Source: Dehalococcoidia bacterium (lineage in GTDB: Bacteria > Chloroflexota > Dehalococcoidia > Plut-88900). From it: a DNA stretch of 64,000 nucleotides. The notes beneath the pieces were generated by a model. The model ran no database searches and had not been told where the DNA came from. It saw nothing but the letters and a program-made list of their open reading frames with translations. Each line of letters begins with the position of its first letter. The stretch's first letter is position 1. Location: the NCBI GenBank assembly GCA_965116945.1, contig OZ220734.1, forward strand, positions 598,610-662,609. The letters are read 5' to 3'. A program made the translations under genes and the position numbers. This document shows, piece by piece, positions 1,284 through 39,637 of this stretch.

Positions 1284-1480
1284 GGGAAGGAAACCCTCAC
1301 CCCCTTTATCCCCCTCTCCCCCGTATCGGGGTACGGGGCAGGCTCTTAGGGCCTTTAAGGGAGAGGGGGAGGAAAAAACAGAGGCATACGCCCGCACCCG
1401 GGTGCGGGCGTATGCTTCTAGTTTGATACTGGTGGGAGGGGAAGGATAGATTCCGAACCGGGGGCTGGAATGATGCTGTG
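1284..1480. repeat. Composite intergenic repeat (modules A + D-hairpin + C-like)
   Basis: GAAACCCTCACCCCCTTTATCCCCCTCTCCCC...GGGAGAGGGGGAG, then hairpin ACAGAGGCATACGCCCGCACCCGGGTGCGGGCGTATGCTTCTAG (1378-1421), then a G-rich C-like tail. Related copies occur at many other loci. Confidence 0.8.
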
Positions 1481-1491
1481 GAGGGTTGCAT

Positions 1492-1640
1492 ATCCGGCTT
1501 AAGAAGGGAAACCCTCACCCCTTTGGTCCCCCTCTCTCCCTCGAGGGACTCGGGGCAGGCTCTTCGACTTCGCTCAGGGCAAGCGGAACCCCAACCCCGT
1601 GGGGTGGATGCCCGGCCGGAGTCGGGAATGACGGACAAGG
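1492..1640. repeat. Composite intergenic repeat (modules A + B + C)
   Basis: GAAACCCTCACCCCTTTGGTCCCCCTCTC...CTTCGACTTCGCTCAGGGCAAGCGGAACC...CCGGCCGGAGTCGGGAATGACGG. Confidence 0.8.
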
Positions 1641-2454
1641 AAGGGTGGCGGTGGAAGATACCGGACGGTTTGCGCAGATAGTCGGCGACGCCTGTACCGA
1701 TGCGGGGTGTCCGCTCCATGGGACGGTCCACACCAGCATCGACCCTGCGACAGCCCCATACTTCCGAGAGGATGTGGACGAGACACGAGATATTCTCGCT
1801 CTGGGGCAGTCCCGTCCACCGGAAGTGCTCTACCACCCCAGGGGATGGGAGCGGGGACCCGTGACCGCCGTTCGTAGACCGGAGCTCTCCGATGGTGACA
1901 ACGGTGGAATCCTTATATGGTCTGTTTGTTTTGAGTCGGGCAACCTCCGACTGCTCGGACCGACCGGCAAGGTCTACGCCGGGGGAGTCCGAGGAGGGCG
2001 CTATGGCCCAGGTGAGCATCTTTACACCGTGCTCCAGAGCGTCGCCTGACGGGGCGATACCGTTGCGCCACGTCAGTGGGGCGCTCACTCGGCTGTGGCC
2101 CTTGTAGGGGGCATGCCGTGATTTGTCCGGGAACCTTCCTTGCATGGGGCGGGACGGTGATAGATCGCTGCGAAGGTTTAGGCGTTGGGCCTTTGGGCAG
2201 CGCTTGATGTGGGTGTTGGGTAGGGAAGGACTGGGGAGGAGGCGCGTGTCGGGGGCCGGGCGGTGGGATACCGCTCGGCTGAGACGGGGCTTATGTAGGC
2301 CGGTGCGACTCATGGGACTCCTTTAGTTCCGCCAAGGGGCGGATGTTCCACCTTTCCTGTGATGGGCGCCGAGGTAGGAGGTCGGATGCCTGGGGTGGAA
2401 TATAGTACAGGTGTTCAGGTAGGGTCAAGGGGCGAATGTCCCACTTTTGGGGGG

Positions 2455-2510
2455 AGGGAACCCTCACCCCCGGGGATGGATTCCCGATCGGGGTCGCGAA
2501 TGACGGGGGG
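2455..2510. repeat. Short repeat copy (module A core + module C) at the left edge of low-GC island 1
   Basis: GGGAGGGAACCCTCACCCCCGGGGATGGATTCCCGATCGGGGTCGCGAATGACGGGGGG. Confidence 0.75.
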
Positions 2511-2585: not shown

Positions 2586-3164
2586 TTATCGCTGCCAGCC
2601 TCTTGAACAATCACCGCTACGGTTTTCTGCGAATAGATCTAGGCTATCATCCGGCCAAGGAGTTTTATCCTTCCTTTGGAATGCCCTGCGAACTTTGGGC
2701 ATTACTCTCCTGGCGACTCTTCTCCGAGGCCACTTATAGATGGCTGAGAAAGAGTCATTGCCGTCAATATTGAGTGCCAGCCGCTGTGGAATCAGGTGAG
2801 GGTTGCGGTCTTCCGGGTCCTTCCGGTAATCAGGGTGATGCGGCAATAGGAGACCAACAACCCCACACCTCTTATTTCTTGGTCGGTCGATGATACTGGC
2901 GGAAATTTCCCAATCGACGTGTTTTCTCTGCCAAGTGCATGGACCAATCAGGACGATGGTTACTACAGCGTCGGCAATGTGGTCATCTCGAATCCTGCGA
3001 CGTATTTCGTCCAGAGGGAGGTTTTCATCGTGGATATCCCCAGGGCTGACAGACTTGTCTATAGCTTTACTGTTCAGTGCCTGCACTAGGCGGTTCTTGT
3101 ACTCCTGGTCGCCCTCGTGGTAGTAACTGATGAATACTTTATATTTGGTTACCTTAGGAGCCAT
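2586..3164 (-). CDS. TIR-domain protein (ThsB-like / DUF1863 TIR_2 family), second TIR gene of the cassette
   Basis: From the internal Met: MAPKVTKYKVFISYYHEGDQEYKNRLVQALN...AVVTIVLIGPCTWQRKHVDWEISASI. This matches the bacterial TIR signature (KVFISY.H.D ... VLIG..T..R.WV.WEI with the conserved Glu). AGGAG lies 9 nt upstream of this ATG; the longer ORF start (3239) would overlap the upstream gene by 60 nt. Confidence 0.75.
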   Translation of the reverse strand: MAPKVTKYKVFISYYHEGDQEYKNRLVQALNSKAIDKSVSPGDIHDENLPLDEIRRRIRDDHIADAVVTIVLIGPCTWQRKHVDWEISASIIDRPRNKRCGVVGLLLPHHPDYRKDPEDRNPHLIPQRLALNIDGNDSFSAIYKWPRRRVARRVMPKVRRAFQRKDKTPWPDDSLDLFAENRSGDCSRGWQR

Positions 3165-3178
3165 AGCTTTTGCTCCTA

Positions 3179-3619
3179 CTACAAAACCCAACCCCAGGAC
3201 ACCAGCACCGTCGAAGTTACTAAAACATAGAATGGCCATATAGATATCGAACCCAAAAGACAGCGCACAACCAAAGGAGACCCCATGCCAACTGGAATTA
3301 CTTTATAAAGGTCGGTACGCTCCAAGTTGCCTTCGTGCAACTTGGATACAAAGTTGTTCTGCGATTTGATGAACGCCCTTTCAAGCGCCAAGTAATAAGA
3401 ATCTAGGAACATGAACAACAATGTTGGCGCCAAGGCTATCAGCACATGCCTAGGCTCTCCCGTCCGCGCCACCAGCACCAGAATGGCTGCGACAAGGGTG
3501 ACGCACCACACCTTGCAATAGCGGCTGTTCTCCGCCATTCGGGTGATTACGCCCTGCATTATCTTAAGGTGCTTTTGGACAGCGGGGGAATCGTGGTCTA
3601 TTTTCGGGTTTCCTGCCAC
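3179..3619 (-). CDS. Small (146 aa) predicted 3-TM membrane protein; candidate effector of the TIR cassette
   Basis: Hydrophobic segments CKVWCVTLVAAILVLVA, HVLIALAPTLLFMFLDSYYLAL and a C-terminal SISIWPFYVLVTSTVLVSWGWVL. Tightly packed between two TIR genes (12-15 bp gaps) on the same strand. No recognisable SLOG, Macro or SIR2 domain. Confidence 0.6.
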   Translation of the reverse strand: MAGNPKIDHDSPAVQKHLKIMQGVITRMAENSRYCKVWCVTLVAAILVLVARTGEPRHVLIALAPTLLFMFLDSYYLALERAFIKSQNNFVSKLHEGNLERTDLYKVIPVGMGSPLVVRCLLGSISIWPFYVLVTSTVLVSWGWVL

Positions 3620-3630
3620 GTTTATGCTTC

Positions 3631-4125
3631 TCAGTGTTTCTTCCGAATCGAGATTGCCTCTTCAACCCAATCTGCAAGATTGTCTCGTATGTGGGAGTAA
3701 AGGTTCTTGCTGTTTGTATACCCACTGCCAAAAGTCTTCACGATGTTTGATAAGTTCCTTTGACCAACAGTGAAATTTTCAAACGGATTTCGTCCTTTCA
3801 GGGCGGTTCTACCATTCGCATTCTTCAGCATATGGATGTAGATGCCTAGTAGCCCCTTCTCGTCGTTCCAGGTTTTTTTTATTTCATATTTGATCCACTT
3901 GCGTTCGGCTGTCTTGCTCCCTATTAGGACGATAACGCAGGATTTCCCAAACATTTGTCTGTCAATCCATTTCTGGATTGCGGCATCGCCGCCTCGCGCT
4001 ATAGTCTCCCACTCGTTATCCGAAACGGGACCATCTTCCTCAACGACGCCCATGTTCCTAATCGTAGCTGCACGCCAAGCGTCACGGGTGTAGTGAAAGC
4101 TGAAGAATGTTCTCCTCTTGACCAT
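3631..4125 (-). CDS. thsB: Thoeris ThsB-like TIR-domain protein
   Basis: MVKRRTFFSFHYTRDAWRAATIRNMGVV...CVIVLIGSKTAERKWIKYEIKKTWNDEKGLLGIYIHMLKNANGRTALKGRNPFENF follows, almost motif for motif, the Bacillus cereus ThsB pattern as I recall it (VFFSFHY..D..R..VRN ... CVLIGS.T..R.WV.YEI ... GI.I ... KG.NPF). GAGAGGA lies 7 nt upstream of the ATG. Confidence 0.8.
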   Translation of the reverse strand: MVKRRTFFSFHYTRDAWRAATIRNMGVVEEDGPVSDNEWETIARGGDAAIQKWIDRQMFGKSCVIVLIGSKTAERKWIKYEIKKTWNDEKGLLGIYIHMLKNANGRTALKGRNPFENFTVGQRNLSNIVKTFGSGYTNSKNLYSHIRDNLADWVEEAISIRKKH

Positions 4126-4339
4126 TGGTTGTCCTCTCGATGCAATACTCCCAAAATATTGCTCTGCCCATGTTCCTACAATTTCTCGCTACACTCCTCT
4201 AGTTGCACGTTCTAGGAGGAATATGTCAGTTAATATCTCCTCCATGGGCTGGATGGGTTGGGGTTTGTTGAAATGGAAGGTGGCAATTGATTTCAGAGTT
4301 TATTTTACGCTGCTAGGCAAATCTGCTGGGTTGTGGAGC

Positions 4340-4368
4340 GGATTCCCGAGTAGTCGGGAATGACGGAG
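4340..4368. repeat. Module C repeat copy (GGATTCCCGAGTAGTCGGGAATGACGG) at the right edge of island 1
   Basis: Direct-orientation match to the module C copy at 2478-2510; contains the short inverted repeat TTCCCGA/TCGGGAA. Confidence 0.75.
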
Positions 4369-4450
4369 GGGAAGGGTTGGATGTCGGTTCTGTTTCGATT
4401 CGCTATGCTAAACTCAATTTCCAACCCCACTCGACATCAGGAGGAGAGAT

Positions 4451-4972
4451 ATGGACGCCAGTGAGCTGGTAACGAAGCTGCTGAAGGGAAACCGGAGTAT
4501 GGTCAGGAAGGCTTTTGACGGGCTTTCGGATGAGGAGGTTTCGATGAGGCCGAGTGGGGATTGCAATTCCATGGCGTGGCTGCTGTGGCACCTGTGTCGG
4601 GTGGAGGATGGATTTATATCGGCGCTGGAGGGGTCGGAGGAACTCTGGAACCAGGGGTGGTCGGAGAAGTGTGGGATATCCGAGGAGACGGAGGGGATGG
4701 GTTACGGACACAAAGCGGGAGACCTGGAGACATTCAGCGTGGGGTCGATTGATGCGCTGAAGGAGTATTTCGGGGAGACGGAGAGGAGGGTGGCCGGGTA
4801 CCTGGCGTCGTTGAGCCCCGAGGACCTAGACAGGGAGGTGCCGGCGATGGTGGGCGAGGGTATGGTGCCATTGGCTGCGCATTTACAGATTCTGGTGAAT
4901 GAGGCGTTGGTGCATGGGGGGCAGATTGCTTACTTGAGGGGGATGCACAAGGGGATGGGGTGGTATTTCTAG
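4451..4972 (+). CDS. DinB/YfiT-like (DUF664) four-helix-bundle metal-dependent protein
   Basis: 173-aa protein with a DinB_2-like pattern (WLLWHL.R.ED...H.GQI.YLRG). GGAGGAG RBS upstream. Confidence 0.55.
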   Translation: MDASELVTKLLKGNRSMVRKAFDGLSDEEVSMRPSGDCNSMAWLLWHLCRVEDGFISALEGSEELWNQGWSEKCGISEETEGMGYGHKAGDLETFSVGSIDALKEYFGETERRVAGYLASLSPEDLDREVPAMVGEGMVPLAAHLQILVNEALVHGGQIAYLRGMHKGMGWYF

Positions 4973-4984
4973 AGCGTGAGGGGT

Positions 4985-5195
4985 GGGAAGGGAACCCTCA
5001 CCCCCTTTATCCCCCTCTCACGCCACAGGCGCACGCCTAGGCGCATCTTCGACCCTTAGGGCCTTTAAGGGAGAGGGGGAGAGAAGAACAGAGGCAGAGG
5101 TTGGCGCATCTGCGCCAACCTCTGCCTCTAGTTCAGTACTGGGGAGATGGGAGGGATGGATTCCCGATCGGAGTCGGGAATGACGGATGAAGAGG
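4985..5195. repeat. Composite intergenic repeat (modules A + D-hairpin + C)
   Basis: GGGAACCCTCACCCCCTTTATCCCCCTCTC...GGGAGAGGGGGAG...AGAGGCAGAGGTTGGCGCATCTGCGCCAACCTCTGCCTCT (perfect 19-bp stem)...GGATTCCCGATCGGAGTCGGGAATGACGG. Confidence 0.8.
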
Positions 5196-17239: not shown

Positions 17240-17725
17240 GGTGAATAAGCCCCCGGGGGCCGGGGGAATGATACAACATCGGGGTGGGGAGGTGGGGGAC
17301 AGCGGTGATGCAGTGGAAACGGGAGGATACCCCCGACCCCACAGAGGAACCCTCTCCCCCTTGGTCCCCCTCTCCCTTAGGGCCTGTAAGGTAGAGGGGG
17401 AAAGAAGAACAGAGGCATACCCCATGCGCTAAAGCGCATGGGGTATGCCTCTAGTTCAGTACTGGGGGGTGGGGAGGTGGGGGATGATGACGGTATTATG
17501 GGTGTACGGGTGGTCCTGTCCCCGGCGCTAGAATCACCCTCACCCTAGCCTTCTCCCGTCAAGAGGTCTTTGCGTAACTCCGCGTTAGGGGAGCGCGACA
17601 CCCCACCCATTCCGCTCTTGAGACCCCCTTCGAGAGCCTCAGGACATGCTTCGACTCCGCTCAGGGCGGGCGGAATCCCATACCACAGGGCATGGTTTCC
17701 CGATCGGAGTCGGGAATGACGGAGA
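17240..17725. repeat. Cluster of repeat modules (C-like, A + D-hairpin, C-like, A-prime, B, C)
   Basis: GGGGTGGGGAGGTGGGGGA occurs on both sides of the A+D unit (17281-17300 and 17461-17480). D-hairpin AGAGGCATACCCCATGCGCTAAAGCGCATGGGGTATGCCTCT (perfect 19-bp stem) sits at 17411-17452. Confidence 0.8.
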
Positions 17726-30602: not shown

Positions 30603-33038
<2,436 letters not shown>

Positions 33039-33139
33039 CCGGTGTTGCGGTCTCCTGTATTGCGCGTCGGGTCCGTGCAATGGGAGAAATTACCACGCAG
33101 GGGGTGGAGGCGCAAGGATGGGGTGACGATTGGACTAGC

Positions 33140-33749: not shown

Positions 33750-34847
33750 TCAGGATTTTACAGCCCACAAATCGAATTCCTGGAAAGCCTCGGAGCGTAT
33801 ACCGAAATGACTAGCTTGACGCTTTCCAATGGAGGCAGACCCCGCATTGCATCGAGTCTGAATGCGCCAATCCGTATTCGACAGCGAAGCACGCAGGATT
33901 TCAACTGGGTCGGTATTGCGATCAGGTATGCGTCCGAACCGTATCACCATCCGAGCACCGTCTTTACTTACGTTTGCACAATTTTGCCAAACCTGCGAAA
34001 GCTGATTGGCAAAATCCTCGGGACTACTATGGATGAGTTGTTCTTCTTGAGAATAATCTACAGAATCTTCCCCTCCTAGGAACCATAACCTGAGCCATTG
34101 ATCAGGGCGATAGGTCCTAAGGCCATAATATGGAGGAGAAGTAATTACCCAATCAAAACGTTGCCCTTTTAGCCTTGCATTAAACAGGATTGAGTCCCTG
34201 CTATCTCCAAGAATGACACGCGAACAAGGCTGGGGAAGAGGGTCTTGATAGAACCTTGCGGCCCGGCGGGCCACTACTTCTCTAATATCTATTTTCCTCG
34301 GCCTAAGCTCATGCTTACGCCAGAAGGAGACGGCATATCTTGGCTTTGGTGCGTAAGTACGGGGACATTGATTGGAGAAATAAGATGGGCTCCCTTTTGA
34401 AACAGGCCCATGCAGGGCTCCAAGCATAATAGCCCGGAGGGCTATGCGGGAAGTTTCACGACAACTGTGCACTAGTGAGTTGCGTATTTTTATAAGAGAT
34501 AGTAGTGTTGATTCCTCAAAAGCTAGCTTCCAAAACTCCCCGGACGGAATATCTTCAGGGTTGCCCTCTTGTTCAAGAATTTTGTCAAGAGTGCGTAATA
34601 TGGCTTGAGGGTTTGTTGATACGAGCTTGGCCTCCGTTAATGCGGCTGCGAGCGGATGGCTATCTATCCCCACACTTGCTAGACCTTTAAGGCGGGCTGC
34701 CATATTTGTGGTTCCACGCCCACAGAATGGGTCAAGTACAGATACCGTAGTCCTTTGTTCCCTGCTAAGAACTTTCCGCGGAAATGAGAGGGGGAACATC
34801 GTGAAGTAGGGACAGATTGCGTTGAGTGAGTCGGGACTAGTGAGCAT
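33750..34847 (-). CDS. SAM-dependent amino-methyltransferase (N6-adenine / N4-cytosine DNA MTase-like): motif I DPFCGRGTT, motif IV SPPY
   Basis: Start at MLTSPD..., whose ATG overlaps the TAA stop of the upstream ATPase (TAATG). VLDPFCGRGTT, and later VITSPPYYG. Sits in a low-GC island. Confidence 0.7.
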   Translation of the reverse strand: MLTSPDSLNAICPYFTMFPLSFPRKVLSREQRTTVSVLDPFCGRGTTNMAARLKGLASVGIDSHPLAAALTEAKLVSTNPQAILRTLDKILEQEGNPEDIPSGEFWKLAFEESTLLSLIKIRNSLVHSCRETSRIALRAIMLGALHGPVSKGSPSYFSNQCPRTYAPKPRYAVSFWRKHELRPRKIDIREVVARRAARFYQDPLPQPCSRVILGDSRDSILFNARLKGQRFDWVITSPPYYGLRTYRPDQWLRLWFLGGEDSVDYSQEEQLIHSSPEDFANQLSQVWQNCANVSKDGARMVIRFGRIPDRNTDPVEILRASLSNTDWRIQTRCNAGSASIGKRQASHFGIRSEAFQEFDLWAVKS

Positions 34848-36928
34848 TATTTCTGGATTGCTCTTACCCAGGTTGTATTCCTGCCTTCGGGCGTAAAGGG
34901 CTCCCAATGTTCACCTTTCTTGCCTAATAAGCTATTCATAGCCTTCTCAACCAAGAGATAAGCAAACTGCCCTCGATCATCCATATGCTCAGGTAGCATT
35001 TCTAGGAAGAATGCTCTTACCGTTCCCCATGCCACACCATCGTTCTTGATTTTCTTGAACATTTCACTATTGCTGAGGGTTTCAATAACATAGGTCTCCA
35101 GAGATTCTAGTGCATCTACTGATTCAAACTTGGGGCATTCTGTATTCTGATTGCGAGAACTTTGCGCTTTAGATAATGCAGACGTAGCATTCCCGATTAG
35201 CTTTTGGAGTTCCTTTGCATAGGTGGGTATGGAAGGGCGATCGTAATGTCCATCGAGCAACTGGTCATGCAGGTCCTCAAACGATAGAACCCGCAATGGA
35301 ACAGGATATTGCTTGCCTTCTACAGCAGAACTCCAAAAGACCCCTTGACCTCGTATTGTCTCATTCAGCAATGTACTCAAAATATCTTGACCAAAGTGCG
35401 CGTTAGCTGCCTGAACATTCCTCAGGTCTCCGGCGGACAAAAGATGGAACAGAAACCAGTTGTCACCCTGGCTCAGAATTTCAAATGGTATGCTACCTGG
35501 CTGCTGCGTAACTAATACCGCTCCCAGATCATATTTACGACCTTCTTTCACCCATTGGATGTAAGGTTCAGATGTTACGGTTCTTTCATTGAGTACTGCC
35601 TGGGCCTCTTCTATAACAGCAATAGTAGGGATTGTTTTGGGTTGAGCGGCAGTGAACTGCTCTTGGTTTCGGTCAAATATTCGACGTAGGATCAACCCAG
35701 ACAAGACAAGCGCTGGACCAGCAGATATTTGCGAAACGTCCACTACACACAATTTCCCATCTGTTAGGGCTTTCAAAATCATATCCATTAGTTGGCTTGA
35801 TGGATCGTGTAGCATACGTACTATACGGGTCGCATTAGCCCTTGCTGCTAAGGCTTCCATTTCCTGATTTGGCTCCAGTCCAAGCAACGTTTTTATTTGT
35901 TGAATCGAAGCGTTATTTCCTTCGGAGTAAATTAAGTTGACCAACTCTATCCAATTATTTCGTCTGATGCTTCTGAGTTTTTGGACGTTCTGTTGATCTT
36001 GGCGTTCCACCGGAAGCGCTATAGATACAACATCTTCGGGATTCAATCTGCGAATATCTAAACGGATTGCTCCTGCTACGAAGGATTGATAGAACTCACT
36101 GGGAGCGCTTCTGGATGTGAACACAACTAGGTGCTCTTCCATTCCGGGGACGTCACAAAGGCCGGGGCGGCCTTTGTCATCTGGCCAGAAATATTCTCCG
36201 TCTGGATCAAAGAGGATCGTGCCCACTGGTACTCTACGTCCATGTCTTTTCTCTACAGTAGGGGTCCGCTCATATAGCTTGCTGAAAAGGAGTTTATTGA
36301 GGTTGGATTTGCCAAAGCCAGCGCGGGCAAATATAAAACTCCTTCTAGCCACCAAACTATCTACTGCAAAGTTCACCTTGACTTCTTCAGATTGTGGCTG
36401 CATCCATTCCTCTGTTGCCAAAGATGAAGGGCCATAAAAGTACTCGCCTAGGGCAAAGTGACCGATTGTCGCACCTTCCACGTTGTGCCCAACTATTTCC
36501 CTAAGTACATCCCCGGAAAGAAAAGCGACGCGGCTACCCACATGTGGAAGGCGTCGGTGTGACGCTACAAAGTTGAGTTTTCCTTCAGGCGTAGCCCGGA
36601 CAACCCCTAATACCCTGATGTTGACCTGATACCTGAGGTATTGCTCCCTTAGATCCTCAGGGATGGGACGGTCTTCCTGTATGGCCCTTATGTTGAATTC
36701 CTCCCCTGAGCCAGAGGACAGCCTACCTTGTGATGATAGTGAGGCTATCCTGCCCAATACGGCTTCGTCAGGAGTCTCCAACTGTACCAACAGGAACTGA
36801 CCATGCATTGGGATGCTCTGGAAATCCTGTCGATACGGCAAAGCTAAATCAGCGTGGAATTCCATACCGCCTTCACGGAATCCCCGGAACACTCCCACTA
36901 TGTTTTCTTGAGTGAATAACTTAATCAA
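34847..36928 (-). CDS. HerA/FtsK-superfamily ATPase (DUF87-like) with N-terminal HAS-barrel-like domain
   Basis: Walker A ARAGFGKSN, Walker B IAVIEEAQ and LVTQQP motifs. N-terminus IVGVFRGFREGGMEFHADLAL...HGQFLLVQL resembles the HerA HAS-barrel. Confidence 0.65.
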   Translation of the reverse strand: MIKLFTQENIVGVFRGFREGGMEFHADLALPYRQDFQSIPMHGQFLLVQLETPDEAVLGRIASLSSQGRLSSGSGEEFNIRAIQEDRPIPEDLREQYLRYQVNIRVLGVVRATPEGKLNFVASHRRLPHVGSRVAFLSGDVLREIVGHNVEGATIGHFALGEYFYGPSSLATEEWMQPQSEEVKVNFAVDSLVARRSFIFARAGFGKSNLNKLLFSKLYERTPTVEKRHGRRVPVGTILFDPDGEYFWPDDKGRPGLCDVPGMEEHLVVFTSRSAPSEFYQSFVAGAIRLDIRRLNPEDVVSIALPVERQDQQNVQKLRSIRRNNWIELVNLIYSEGNNASIQQIKTLLGLEPNQEMEALAARANATRIVRMLHDPSSQLMDMILKALTDGKLCVVDVSQISAGPALVLSGLILRRIFDRNQEQFTAAQPKTIPTIAVIEEAQAVLNERTVTSEPYIQWVKEGRKYDLGAVLVTQQPGSIPFEILSQGDNWFLFHLLSAGDLRNVQAANAHFGQDILSTLLNETIRGQGVFWSSAVEGKQYPVPLRVLSFEDLHDQLLDGHYDRPSIPTYAKELQKLIGNATSALSKAQSSRNQNTECPKFESVDALESLETYVIETLSNSEMFKKIKNDGVAWGTVRAFFLEMLPEHMDDRGQFAYLLVEKAMNSLLGKKGEHWEPFTPEGRNTTWVRAIQK

Positions 36929-36936
36929 CGCGCCAC

Positions 36937-38157
36937 CTAGTATCTTCGTTGTGCAGGATCAACATCTCTTAGTTGGAACTCGTCAAGGCTAGGCGACTCG
37001 GAGCCCAGCGCCGCACGGAGACCGGAAATAACCTCGTCTTGAATAATATCAAAGTCAAAATCGACCAATGCTGCGTTCTCATGTGCCTTCTGAAGACACA
37101 TAGGATAAAAGGGAACAGGGAAACCATTATTAGCATCAGACAGCAGGCATCCGAGTATCGCTCCCGCTTCCCTTTCTTGCGGGACAAATATATCAACCGG
37201 CCAAACCGGATCGTTGGATCTGCTACCGAACTTTACGAAGAACATTTTACCAGCGACGAATTTGTTTACCTCACCACCTTCCAGTCCTACGTCATCCCCT
37301 CGGGCATATTCAGCCCAAATATAGGCCTTCTTCTCCAAATCTCTTGGTACTAGCGTGTAACAAGGATATCCAGCTGTAAGTATGTGCTCCAAAGACATGG
37401 CCAAACGATAGCGATCCAGAACTTTGGAGTGCTTTGCCAGACCAACCAGATAGATGTTCCTGCGATGCTTTCGCTTGTGTCTCTCAATGGCTTGCTTAAA
37501 TCCGTCGCTCAGGCGTATGAACAAGTCCTCGGCAAAAACCTTGCTCCTCAATAGACCATCACGGACTATGATTGTGTCAGTACCGAATTCCTTCTCAGTT
37601 AGTATTGAGAAGAGCACCGCCCATTCCATGAGCTCACGATAAACTTGAACCCAACTCGGGCTGGAAGGCCTGTCGTCATCATTCCTTCGAATCATGTTGC
37701 TCAGTCGCGTTAGGTCTTGGACATTTAGGAATTCCATCATCTTACCTAGCGCCGTGATTGGAACACCTTTGTCATCAAACTGCATGCGGCTGAGTTCAGT
37801 TACGCTAGTTGTAGGTGATATAGCCTCTAGGCAATACTCGTTGTTGCTGGAATCAACAACACGCACCAATTGCACCAGAAAAGGGTCAAACTGGATTCGA
37901 TTGTTGCCTCCGTCCGTTCCAACTAGAGAAAAGGAGGTGGTCATTCTTGGCTGTACCTGGCGAACTGTGGATTGGAGTGGCTTAATTTCGACCCTGAGGT
38001 CGTCCAATAGGCTCATGTCCTGCCTAATCCGATTCTCGATCTCGCCCTTCAATATGTCGTAGCTCTGTAAATCTATCATTACATCCTCTAGTCGACTTAG
38101 TGAAGCCCACAGTGACGCGGGTTCGATATATCCTACCACTTGCCGATCTGAGATCAT
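36937..38157 (-). CDS. NurA-like nuclease (RNase-H-fold, HerA partner); start uncertain (M at 38157 or 38079)
   Basis: SLVGTDGGNNRIQFDP (NurA motif-I-like D) and a C-terminal GFPVPFYPMCLQKAHENAAL (NurA-like Y...AH). The ORF's first 117 aa overlap leuC on the opposite strand and were rejected. GAGGA RBS lies before the 38079 ATG. Confidence 0.55.
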   Translation of the reverse strand: MISDRQVVGYIEPASLWASLSRLEDVMIDLQSYDILKGEIENRIRQDMSLLDDLRVEIKPLQSTVRQVQPRMTTSFSLVGTDGGNNRIQFDPFLVQLVRVVDSSNNEYCLEAISPTTSVTELSRMQFDDKGVPITALGKMMEFLNVQDLTRLSNMIRRNDDDRPSSPSWVQVYRELMEWAVLFSILTEKEFGTDTIIVRDGLLRSKVFAEDLFIRLSDGFKQAIERHKRKHRRNIYLVGLAKHSKVLDRYRLAMSLEHILTAGYPCYTLVPRDLEKKAYIWAEYARGDDVGLEGGEVNKFVAGKMFFVKFGSRSNDPVWPVDIFVPQEREAGAILGCLLSDANNGFPVPFYPMCLQKAHENAALVDFDFDIIQDEVISGLRAALGSESPSLDEFQLRDVDPAQRRY

Positions 38158-38218
38158 GTATAGGTAGTTGGGGTGGGGGTTGGTGCCTTTGCTATAATCG
38201 GCGCTATCCAATTCGTTT

Positions 38219-39637
38219 GTGAGGTCCGTTGAGATGCCCCCTAAGACTATGTTCGAGAAGATTTGGGATGCCCATGTGGTGCACCAGGACCCGGGGCAGG
38301 ATGCGATCCTGTATGTGGACCTGCACCTGGTGCATGAGGTGACTTCCCCGCAGGCCTTTGAGGGGCTGCGGTTGTCGGGGAGGGGGGTGCGGAGGCCGGA
38401 GCTGACGGTGGCGACGGTCGACCACTCCATACCGACATGGGAGCGCTCCCGGCCGACGGAAGACCCGATTGCGGCGCAGCAGATCGCTACGATGCAGGAG
38501 AACGCCAAGGACTACGGCCTGCCGTTCTACGACGTGCACAGCGACGGGCAGGGAATCGTGCACGTTATCGGGCCGCAGCTGGGGTACACGCAGCCGGGGA
38601 TGCTGATAGTGTGCGGGGACAGCCATACGTCGACGCACGGGGCGTTTGGGTCGATGGGTATGGCAATCGGGACCACGCAGGCGGAGCACGTGCTGGCGAC
38701 GCAGTGCGTCCAGCAGGCGAACCTGCAGACGATGGAGCTGCGGCTGACGGGGAGCCTGCCCTCGGGGGTGGGGGCGAAGGACATCATCCTGGGGATCATC
38801 GGGGAGATAGGGATAGACGGGGCGAGCGGGTATGCGGTGGAGTACACGGGCGAGGCGATACGGGGCCTTTCGATGGAAGGTCGGATGACGGTATGCAACA
38901 TGTCGATAGAGGCGGGGGCGCGAATCGGGATGGTTGCGCCGGACGAGACGACTTTTGAGTACGTGAAGGGGCGTGGGTTTGCGCCGAAGGGGGAGGCCTG
39001 GGAGGAGGCTGTTGAGAAGTGGCGCAAGCTGCCCACGGACACCGATGCCAAGTACGACCGGTTAGTCGAGATTGACGCGGGGTCGATGGAGCCGTACGTG
39101 ACCTGGGGGACGAACCCGGGAATGGTGGCGAAGGTGTCGGGGAACGTGCCTGATCCGGCGGGTATGGAGTCGGGGGCGGAGAAGGAGGCGACGGAGAGGG
39201 CGCTGCAGTACATGGGCCTCGAGGCTGGGAAGGCTATCGAGGACATCAGGATCGACCGGGCGTTCATAGGGTCGTGCACCAACTCTCGGATCGAGGATCT
39301 GCGAATTGCGGCGGAGGTCGCCAAGGGCAAGAAGGTGGACCCGAAGGTGTATGCGATGGTCGTGCCCGGGTCGTTCGTGGTGAAGCAGCAGGCGGAGCAG
39401 GAGGGGTTGGACCAGGTATTCAAGGACGCGGGTTTCGACTGGCGGGAGGCGGGGTGCTCGATGTGCCTGGGGATGAACCCCGACATTCTGCAGCCGGGCG
39501 AGAGGTGCGCGTCGACGTCCAACCGGAACTTCGAGGGGCGTCAGGGCAAGGGCGGGAGGACTCACCTTGTGAGCCCGGCGATGGCGGCGGCGGCGGCGAT
39601 TGCGGGGCACTTTGTCGATATTCGGGACTGGAGTTAG
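38219..39637 (+). CDS. leuC: 3-isopropylmalate dehydratase large subunit
   Basis: Aconitase-family motifs ([20 protein letters not shown], and the Fe-S cysteines in ...GSCTNSR...CSMC). Confidence 0.95.

What the first reader, a model, noticed from the sequence alone, without database searches (positions are those of the whole stretch)
2586..4125. Thoeris-like cassette with two TIR proteins flanking a tiny 3-TM protein in place of a canonical ThsA effector
The minus-strand operon reads ThsB-like TIR (164 aa), then a 146-aa three-helix membrane protein, then a second TIR (192 aa), with 12-15 bp spacers. Both TIR proteins keep the WxxxE glutamate of NAD-cleaving bacterial TIRs. Known Thoeris ThsA effectors are SIR2-SLOG or multi-TM Macro proteins that bind a TIR-made nucleotide signal. 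Here the only non-TIR gene has no room for a SLOG or Macro sensor, since its soluble segments are about 35 and 45 aa. That suggests either a minimal membrane-disrupting effector gated in a new way, or an undescribed TIR-signalling architecture. The cassette sits in a 1.8-kb island of about 45% GC inside DNA of over 60% GC, pointing to recent horizontal acquisition.
Basis: partly seen in the sequence, partly recalled or inferred. Interest (0 to 1): 0.85.

Follow-up and report, generated by a model that had tools for sequence, protein, structure and literature searches.

The report
Type V Thoeris cassette, two sensors

Summary
On the minus strand lie a 164-aa ThsB-type TIR gene (3631-4125), a 146-aa three-helix membrane protein gene (3179-3619) and a 192-aa ThsB-type TIR gene (2586-3164). 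Spacers are 11 and 14 nt. GC is 48.9% against 59-60% around it.

The membrane protein is not an undescribed effector. It belongs to a very large family, with 3,764 representatives of 50%-identity clusters. PADLOC lists that family as candidate PDC-M50A. Yirmiya et al. [quoted passage not shown]

The gene beside the experimentally validated Bacillus thuringiensis type V ThsB matches the window protein (BLASTP 1e-15; family profile 99.4% probability, E 2.7e-21). Their Table S1 lists TIR genes 2620551307 and 2620551309 as "DUF2270 - Type V". These are 61% and 81% identical to the window's two TIRs. Their numbers leave one gene between them, implying the same TIR-X-TIR layout.

Most likely mechanism: a TIR-made cyclic ADP-ribose, probably 3'cADPR, opens a ThsF oligomer in the membrane. 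What stays open is which signal this subclade uses and why it has two sensors.

The parts
3631..4125 (-). thsB1: ThsB-type TIR protein, 164 aa; the presumed phage sensor and signal synthase.
   Evidence: Pfam ThsB_TIR 1.9e-26. PADLOC ThsB 2.1e-70 and PDC-M50B 1.8e-61. 57% identical to Synechococcus PCC 6312 TIR P0271 and 61% to IMG 2620551307, both labelled 'DUF2270 - Type V' in Yirmiya Table S1. Catalytic Glu E81 lies in WIKYE.
3179..3619 (-). thsF: 146-aa membrane protein with three hydrophobic helices; the presumed signal-gated membrane effector.
   Evidence: PADLOC PDC-M50A 1.1e-25. No Pfam or NCBIfam hit. BLASTP 1e-15 to the gene next to the validated B. thuringiensis type V ThsB; the family profile matches that gene at 99.4% probability, E 2.7e-21. 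54% identical to the neighbour of the Synechococcus type V TIR. Hydropathy and AF2 model. R27 and K36 are invariant across 113 representatives.
2586..3164 (-). thsB2: second ThsB-type TIR protein, 192 aa, from a different TIR clade than thsB1.
   Evidence: Pfam ThsB_TIR 4e-18. 81% identical over 155 aa to IMG 2620551309, labelled 'DUF2270 - Type V', TIR cluster 2741407742. Only 18% identical to TIR1. Glu E86 lies in HVDWE. The start at 3164 has GGAG 8 nt upstream.
4126..4351 (-). Upstream intergenic region, where the operon's promoter should lie.
   Evidence: 47% GC over 4126-4450. The next gene is a divergent DinB-family gene at 4451-4972. The sigma-70 consensus scan found no promoter-like site here, so the promoter is not located.
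2457..2506 (+). REP-like hairpin repeat at the downstream edge of the low-GC segment.
   Evidence: Repeat family D2. The core TCGCGAATGACGG is one mismatch from the consensus. Alignment of five copies.
4330..4380 (+). REP-like hairpin repeat at the upstream edge of the low-GC segment, in the same orientation as the copy at 2457-2506.
   Evidence: Repeat family D5. Exact core at 4354-4366. Alignment.

Best explanation
This is a type V Thoeris anti-phage system in a two-sensor layout, thsB1-thsF-thsB2.

Inferred mechanism, taken from the characterised B. thuringiensis homologue:
1. During phage infection one or both ThsB TIR proteins are activated.
2. They convert NAD+ into a cyclic ADP-ribose isomer, most likely 3'cADPR.
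3. [quoted passage not shown]
4. The oligomer breaches the membrane, and the infected cell stops growing or dies before the phage completes its cycle.

The two TIRs come from different clades. They most probably widen the range of phages sensed, while feeding one effector.

Shown here: homology, synteny, an intact catalytic Glu in both TIRs, three hydrophobic helices, and conserved basic residues in ThsF.

Shown in the literature for homologues: defence, phage-induced 3'cADPR synthesis, and 3'cADPR-dependent toxicity.

Inferred: everything about this particular locus, including its signal, the oligomer and the roles of the two TIRs.
For: Homology of the middle protein to validated ThsF:
- Its downstream neighbour L019:4773-5198 (141 aa) matches the window protein at BLASTP 1e-15.
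- It matches the family profile A3 at 99.4% probability, E 2.7e-21, over 123 columns.
- It hits PADLOC PDC-M50A at 1.8e-48, the same models the window protein hits at 1.1e-25.

Both window TIRs have close relatives labelled 'DUF2270 - Type V' in Table S1:
- 2509429074 (= P0271) is 57% identical to TIR1, and its neighbour is 54% identical to the window ThsF.
- 2620551307 is 61% identical to TIR1 and 2620551309 is 81% identical to TIR2. They are two gene numbers apart.

Synteny: of 98 ThsF genes in 97 loci, a TIR gene lies directly upstream in 87 of 93 evaluable cases and on both sides in 13.

Defence-island context: the cassette is nested in a type I restriction-modification operon in L008. It lies beside restriction-modification genes in L002, L004 and L005. 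It lies beside UvrD-helicase and OLD/TOPRIM ATPase genes (a Gabija-like pair) in L019.

Competence of the parts: the catalytic Glu is kept in both TIRs. R27 and K36 are invariant in ThsF, and R81 and K93 are conserved, next to the membrane helices.

Published function of homologues: defence, 3'cADPR synthesis, 3'cADPR toxicity, inhibition by the Tad1 sponge, and an AF3 heptamer with basic pockets.
Against: - Nothing has been tested for this locus or for any member of its subclade.
- A second validated type V system (Bacillus sp. 1NLA3E) was not triggered by 3'cADPR, so the signal is not uniform across ThsF systems.
- TIR2's clade (cluster 2741407742) also pairs with the type VI effector, whose signal is 2'cADPR, and with the type VIII effector. 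TIR2 may therefore make a different molecule.
- The window's ThsF clade has I84 where 82% of the family has Arg.
- The published oligomer and pockets are AF3 predictions. No solved structure resembles the monomer model.
- The window protein gives no Pfam PF10028 hit.
- No promoter was found by the consensus scan.
Confidence: 0.8

Rival explanations
1. The family assignment is the same, but the signalling differs. In this subclade ThsF responds to a signal other than 3'cADPR (2'cADPR, canonical cADPR or something unknown). Alternatively, the two TIRs make two different molecules and ThsF needs both or answers to either.
For: TIR2's clade pairs elsewhere with type VI and type VIII effectors. Type VI uses 2'cADPR and canonical cADPR is used by other new types. 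The 1NLA3E type V system was not triggered by 3'cADPR. The window ThsF is only 38% identical to validated ThsF over 71 residues. Position 84 differs from the family's Arg.
Against: TIR clades are shared promiscuously among effector types in Table S1, so clade membership does not predict the product. The simplest reading of multi-ThsB Thoeris operons, from my own knowledge of type I, is several sensors making one signal.
Confidence: 0.15
2. One or both TIRs act as the killing arm by depleting NAD+. The small membrane protein is then an anchor, regulator or sensor rather than the effector.
For: Many bacterial TIRs are NAD+-depleting effectors. The catalytic Glu is intact in both TIRs. ThsF has no recognisable ligand-binding domain.
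Against: In the B. thuringiensis homologue, added 3'cADPR impaired growth of cells expressing the system without phage. A 3'cADPR sponge reduced defence. That fits a signal-to-effector relay, not a TIR NADase effector. Both window TIRs are short stand-alone ThsB-type proteins, like known signal producers.
Confidence: 0.04
3. The cassette is a non-functional or silent passenger: recently acquired DNA that is not expressed in this host.
For: GC is about 10 points below the host DNA. No consensus promoter or terminator was found. REP-like repeats lie on both sides.
Against: All three ORFs are intact with conserved spacing. Catalytic and family-invariant residues are kept. The closest ThsF relatives are 88-91% identical and full length. 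The sigma-70 scan is not informative for a probable Chloroflexota host.
Confidence: 0.05

Closest known systems
Type V Thoeris (ThsB + ThsF, 'DUF2270' effector), Yirmiya et al., bioRxiv 10.64898/2025.12.03.692087
   Same: The effector family is the same. The TIR clades are the same. The gene order, with a TIR upstream of thsF, is the same. The effector has three predicted membrane helices. Table S1 gene numbers 2620551307 and 2620551309 imply the same TIR-X-TIR layout.
   Different: The validated systems are two-gene operons from Bacillus, and their TIRs are of other clades (252 aa in B. thuringiensis). The window has two short TIRs of two clades flanking thsF. Its ThsF is only about 38% identical to the validated one over the N-terminal half. 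The signal for this subclade is untested.
PADLOC candidate system PDC-M50 (PDC-M50A + PDC-M50B), PADLOC-DB v2.0.0
   Same: The window ThsF hits all four PDC-M50A models (best 1.1e-25). TIR1 hits PDC-M50B at 1.8e-61 over its full length. Validated ThsF also hits PDC-M50A, at 1.8e-48.
   Different: PDC-M50 is a two-gene candidate with no function attached. No paper in the held library mentions it. TIR2 matches PDC-M50B only weakly (4.6e-07).
Type I Thoeris (ThsA SIR2-SLOG + one or more ThsB)
   Same: It uses ThsB-type TIR sensors with the same catalytic Glu. It probably uses the same signal class, since 3'cADPR activates both ThsA and B. thuringiensis ThsF. Several ThsB genes per effector also occur in type I (my own knowledge).
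   Different: There is no SIR2 or SLOG protein in the window. The effector is a 146-aa membrane protein, so the outcome is presumably membrane failure rather than NAD+ depletion.
Type II Thoeris (Macro-TM effector, His-ADPR) and type VII Thoeris (SLATT effector, cADPR)
   Same: In both, a TIR-made signal activates a membrane-spanning effector.
   Different: The window protein has no Macro domain and no SLATT match. Only 1 of 113 family representatives touches SLATT_6, at E 0.0077. The effector is much smaller, and the ligand site is presumed to lie between protomers.

Membership tests
Type V Thoeris (ThsB + ThsF) | The effector is homologous to experimentally validated ThsF. | tested here: met
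   The neighbour of the 100%-identical B. thuringiensis ThsB (L019:4773-5198) matches the window protein at BLASTP 1e-15. It matches family profile A3 at 99.4% probability, E 2.7e-21. Both hit PADLOC PDC-M50A.
Type V Thoeris (ThsB + ThsF) | A TIR-domain (ThsB) gene lies adjacent to, and in an operon with, the effector gene. | tested here: met
   ThsB_TIR genes lie 11 and 14 nt from thsF on the same strand. A TIR gene is directly upstream in 87 of 93 evaluable family loci.
Type V Thoeris (ThsB + ThsF) | The TIR has an intact catalytic glutamate. | tested here: met
   E81 (TIR1) and E86 (TIR2) fall in the invariant Glu column shared with B. cereus MSX-D12 ThsB and with validated type VI and XI TIRs.
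Type V Thoeris (ThsB + ThsF) | The effector has three membrane-spanning helices. | tested here: met
   Hydrophobic stretches lie at about 37-52, 58-79 and 125-146. The AF2 model is helical. No dedicated topology predictor was available.
Type V Thoeris (ThsB + ThsF) | The effector forms a ring homo-oligomer with basic inter-protomer pockets. | not testable with these tools
   Only monomer prediction is offered. R27 and K36 are invariant and R81 and K93 conserved, which is compatible with the published model but is not a test.
Type V Thoeris (ThsB + ThsF) | Phage defence, and a TIR-made signal (3'cADPR in the reference system) that triggers effector toxicity. | not testable with these tools
   This needs experiments. 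It is reported for homologues only.
Pfam PF10028 (DUF2270) | Score above the Pfam gathering threshold. | tested here: not met
   The window protein has no hit at E<=1. Validated ThsF has none at E<=10. 14 of 113 family representatives hit weakly, best E 9e-4. The DUF2270 label is the authors' annotation. At most, ThsF is a distant relative of PF10028 as the model stands.
Canonical Thoeris type I / type II | A SIR2-SLOG (ThsA) or Macro-TM effector next to the TIR. | tested here: not met
   tblastn of an annotated ThsA, a SIR2 protein and a Macro protein against the whole window gave nothing. The best hit was E 0.008 over 57 aa, on the strand opposite to leuS.
SLATT effectors (type VII Thoeris, CBASS) | Match to a SLATT profile. 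| tested here: not met
   The window protein has no hit. Only 1 of 113 representatives hits SLATT_6, at E 0.0077.

The most novel reading that the evidence does not exclude
The conserved thsB1-thsF-thsB2 subclade, seen mostly in Dehalococcoidia-like genomes, may not be a simple 'two sensors, one signal' version of type V. Its two TIRs come from clades that elsewhere serve different effectors. They could make different ADPR-derived molecules, with ThsF integrating both or responding to a signal other than 3'cADPR. That would be a two-input TIR signalling circuit.
Probability: 0.12. Interest if true: 0.55.

Novelty: new member of a known kind. Interest (0 to 1): 0.2.

Why it matters
The locus adds an instance of type V Thoeris in high-GC, probably Chloroflexota, DNA. 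It documents that a two-ThsB layout around thsF is a conserved sub-architecture. It also shows that PADLOC's uncharacterised candidate PDC-M50 and the preprint's ThsF are the same family. That family is very large (3,764 representatives of 50%-identity clusters), and the Pfam DUF2270 model does not capture it. This is useful for annotation: these genes are currently called 'hypothetical protein' in RefSeq plasmids, including E. coli and Klebsiella conjugative plasmids. It does not open a new question. The remaining open point is which signal or signals this subclade uses and what the second TIR adds.

Tried and rejected
- A literature search for 'PDC-M50' found nothing.
- Fold search against AFDB was not possible because the library is absent. 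Foldseek against the PDB gave no match better than E 0.9.
A2 was used instead.
- The search for related loci with the diverse alignment A3 failed for lack of a conserved stretch. A1 worked.
- Looking for a ThsF neighbour through plasmid hits of the B. thuringiensis TIR led to TIRs next to Macro and SIR2 genes instead.
- The exact window ThsF sequence is not on record in the contig collection.
- Direct Pfam scans of several family members gave only noise.
- SLATT membership was considered and rejected.
- The paper's separate '3TM' putative-effector class was considered and rejected. Its listed TIRs belong to other clusters, while relatives of both window TIRs are filed under 'DUF2270 - Type V'.
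- An RNA gene in 1100-2600 was considered. There was nothing at Rfam gathering score, only sub-threshold hairpin matches, and no tRNA.
- No mobile-element gene (integrase or transposase) was found in ORFs flanking the cassette.

Full report
**What is in the sequence**

One search lists three minus-strand ORFs.
- 3631-4125 encodes 164 aa and starts at ATG.
- 3179-3619 encodes 146 aa and starts at GTG.
- 2586-3239 encodes 217 aa from its first ATG.

The third gene most likely starts at the ATG at 3164, which gives 192 aa. A GGAG lies 8 nt upstream, and homologues were called at 190-191 aa. The gaps between the genes are then 11 and 14 nt.

Both outer proteins pass Pfam's ThsB_TIR threshold (92.8 and 66.1 bits, cut-off 21.2). 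Both hit PADLOC ThsB models. NCBIfam has nothing for any of the three proteins.

The middle protein has no Pfam hit at E<=1. It has three hydrophobic stretches, at about 37-52, 58-79 and 125-146. Its AF2 model is all-helical (pLDDT 79, pTM 0.67).

The cassette is 48.9% GC. The window mean is 59.1% (SD 3.8% for windows of the same size) and the flanks are 60%.
- The GC is nearer 49% than 45%.
- The spacers are 11 and 14 nt.
- Only TIR1 has the W of 'WxxxE' (WIKYE, E81). TIR2 reads HVDWE (E86).

The glutamate column is invariant across both proteins and the reference ThsBs.

**The middle protein is not an orphan**

A word-indexed search found 1,432 relatives, the top 120 of them 69-91% identical. 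A full HMMER scan of 1.84 billion cluster representatives found 3,764 at E<=1e-3 and 1,384 at E<=1e-10.

PADLOC places the protein in candidate family PDC-M50A (1.1e-25). TIR1 matches the partner family PDC-M50B (1.8e-61). So a TIR plus this membrane protein was already catalogued as a candidate defence pair in 2023.

**Synteny**

All five genome loci retrieved show TIR / TM / TIR on one strand (four Dehalococcoidia MAGs and one betaproteobacterium). They lie beside restriction-modification genes. Contigs carrying P0001, which is 91% identical to the window protein, have the same three genes in unrelated neighbourhoods. In L008 the cassette sits inside a type I restriction-modification operon.

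I then surveyed 98 family genes in 97 loci, covering genomes, plasmids, 80 metagenome contigs and one viral contig. TIR genes were detected by my own iterative profile search from 15 seeds, which is not a curated method.

| Arrangement | Count |
|---|---|
| TIR gene directly upstream | 87 of 93 evaluable |
| At least one adjacent TIR | 91 of 98 |
| No adjacent TIR, upstream flank cut by the contig end | 5 |
| No adjacent TIR, flanks evaluable | 2 |
| TIR on both sides | 13 |

Of the 13 two-TIR loci, 8 are the close relatives L001-L008, 1 is the second pair on the Vibrio plasmid L011, and 4 come from the 62 evaluable metagenome loci.

**Link to the literature**

Yirmiya et al. (bioRxiv 10.64898/2025.12.03.692087) define Thoeris types V-XI. 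Type V is a ThsB plus ThsF. They annotate ThsF as DUF2270 (PF10028), with three membrane helices and an AF3-modelled homo-heptamer bearing basic inter-protomer pockets.

In the B. thuringiensis DAR 81934 system:
- the TIR makes 3'cADPR on infection;
- added 3'cADPR is toxic to cells carrying the system;
- the 3'cADPR sponge Tad1 reduces defence.

I tied the window to this work in three ways.

1. Their Table S1 TIR 2509429074, labelled 'DUF2270 - Type V', is Synechococcus PCC 6312 protein P0271. It is 57% identical to window TIR1. Its downstream neighbour is 54% identical to the window membrane protein, E 5e-45.
2. P0391 is 100% identical to the validated B. thuringiensis ThsB. Its downstream neighbour (141 aa) matches the window protein at 1e-15. 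It matches the family profile at 99.4% probability, E 2.7e-21, and PADLOC PDC-M50A at 1.8e-48. A Priestia plasmid protein next to a TIR that is 67% identical to the validated 1NLA3E ThsB behaves the same way.
3. Table S1 lists 2620551307 (61% identical to TIR1) and 2620551309 (81% identical to TIR2 over 155 aa), both as 'DUF2270 - Type V'. Their numbers leave exactly one gene between them. This is the window's layout, already in their catalogue.

**On the DUF2270 label**

With hmmscan, neither the window protein nor validated ThsF hits PF10028. Only 14 of 113 diverse representatives do, and weakly (best E 9e-4). I therefore file the protein under ThsF by direct homology. Its membership of PF10028 as currently modelled is not met.

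Weak, nearly full-length matches to PF24838 ('octameric membrane protein') also occur. I did not follow these up.

**Mechanism**

The most likely mechanism is inferred from the homologue.
1. Phage infection activates ThsB1 and/or ThsB2.
2. NAD+ is turned into a cyclic ADPR isomer, probably 3'cADPR.
3. The signal binds between ThsF protomers. The family-invariant R27 and K36 and the conserved R81 and K93 flank the first two membrane helices.
4. The oligomer breaches the membrane and the infection aborts.

The sensor would be made by the assembly, not by a domain.

The two TIRs are only 18% identical and belong to different clusters in Table S1. The simplest role for the second is a wider sensing range.

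Caveats:
- The 1NLA3E type V system was not triggered by 3'cADPR.
- TIR2's cluster also serves type VI and VIII effectors.
- The window's clade has I84 where 82% of the family has Arg.

The identity of the signal here is therefore open.

**Other checks**

No SIR2-SLOG, SIR2 or Macro homologue is detectable in the window by tblastn. Flanking genes are ordinary: an MscS-like channel, a DinB-family protein, an alcohol dehydrogenase and an amidohydrolase. No integrase or transposase was found.

REP-like hairpin repeats bracket the low-GC segment in the same orientation. The consensus scan found no promoter or terminator for the operon. That scan is weak evidence in a probable Chloroflexota host. 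The host assignment itself is an inference from the nearest homologues.

**Verdict**

It is a new member of an already described kind, type V Thoeris (also PADLOC PDC-M50), and its two-TIR layout already appears in the published catalogue. Interest is low.

The residual question is whether the conserved two-TIR subclade signals with one molecule or two.

Noticed in passing
window 33750-38508 (minus strand), next to leuS at 30603-33080: This is the lowest-GC stretch of the window (45.5%). It encodes an N6/N4 DNA methylase (PADLOC MTase_II 1e-15), a HerA/DUF87 ATPase (PADLOC HerA 5e-20) and a 523-aa protein with no Pfam or PADLOC hit. It may be a second acquired defence locus.
   Followed up: partly
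window 1605-1634, 2477-2506, 4337-4366, 5157-5186, 17693-17722 (all + strand): A REP-like hairpin repeat of about 30 nt, GGATTCCCGATCGGAGTCGGGAATGACGG. Four of the five copies lie in the first 5.2 kb, and two bracket the Thoeris cassette. A longer repeat, 1345-1473 and 5055-5183, is 74% identical.
   Followed up: partly
window 1300-2400: About 1.1 kb of 60-65% GC DNA downstream of the cassette. It has no credible ORF, no Pfam hit, no Rfam family at gathering score and no tRNA. Its nature is unexplained.
   Followed up: partly
L012 (E. coli plasmid NZ_CP083514.1) 3971-5277, and about 30 further Enterobacteriaceae plasmids: A ThsF homologue (PDC-M50A 7.8e-32) lies beside a TIR gene on conjugative E. 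coli, Klebsiella, Shigella and Enterobacter plasmids, between IS26 and ISKpn26. All are annotated 'hypothetical protein'. The TIR appears split into 110-aa and 179-aa ORFs.
   Followed up: partly
L011 (Vibrio chagasii plasmid NZ_AP025467.1) 4001-5613 and 6205-8212: One plasmid carries two ThsF homologues. The first is followed by a TIR gene. The second has TIR genes on both sides.
   Followed up: no
L019:4773-5198 and members of alignment A3: There are weak but nearly full-length matches of ThsF proteins to Pfam PF24838 '8xMP, octameric membrane protein family'. Validated ThsF scores E 0.012 over residues 10-134 against profile positions 6-130 of 136. Five of 113 representatives also match. 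This may point to a real distant relationship that fits a ring oligomer.
   Followed up: no
L032, L067, L082, L095 (about 491-498 aa); L063, L080, L085, L092 (229 aa); L026, L034, L038, L054 (263-270 aa): Non-TIR ORFs of recurring lengths lie directly downstream of thsF in metagenome loci. They could be further conserved partners or simply repeated contigs. They were not identified.
   Followed up: no
L101 (IMGVR_UViG_2938612361_000006) 2965-3399: Only one viral contig in IMG/VR encodes a ThsF relative (45% identical), with a TIR ORF upstream. The family is essentially cellular or plasmid-borne.
   Followed up: no
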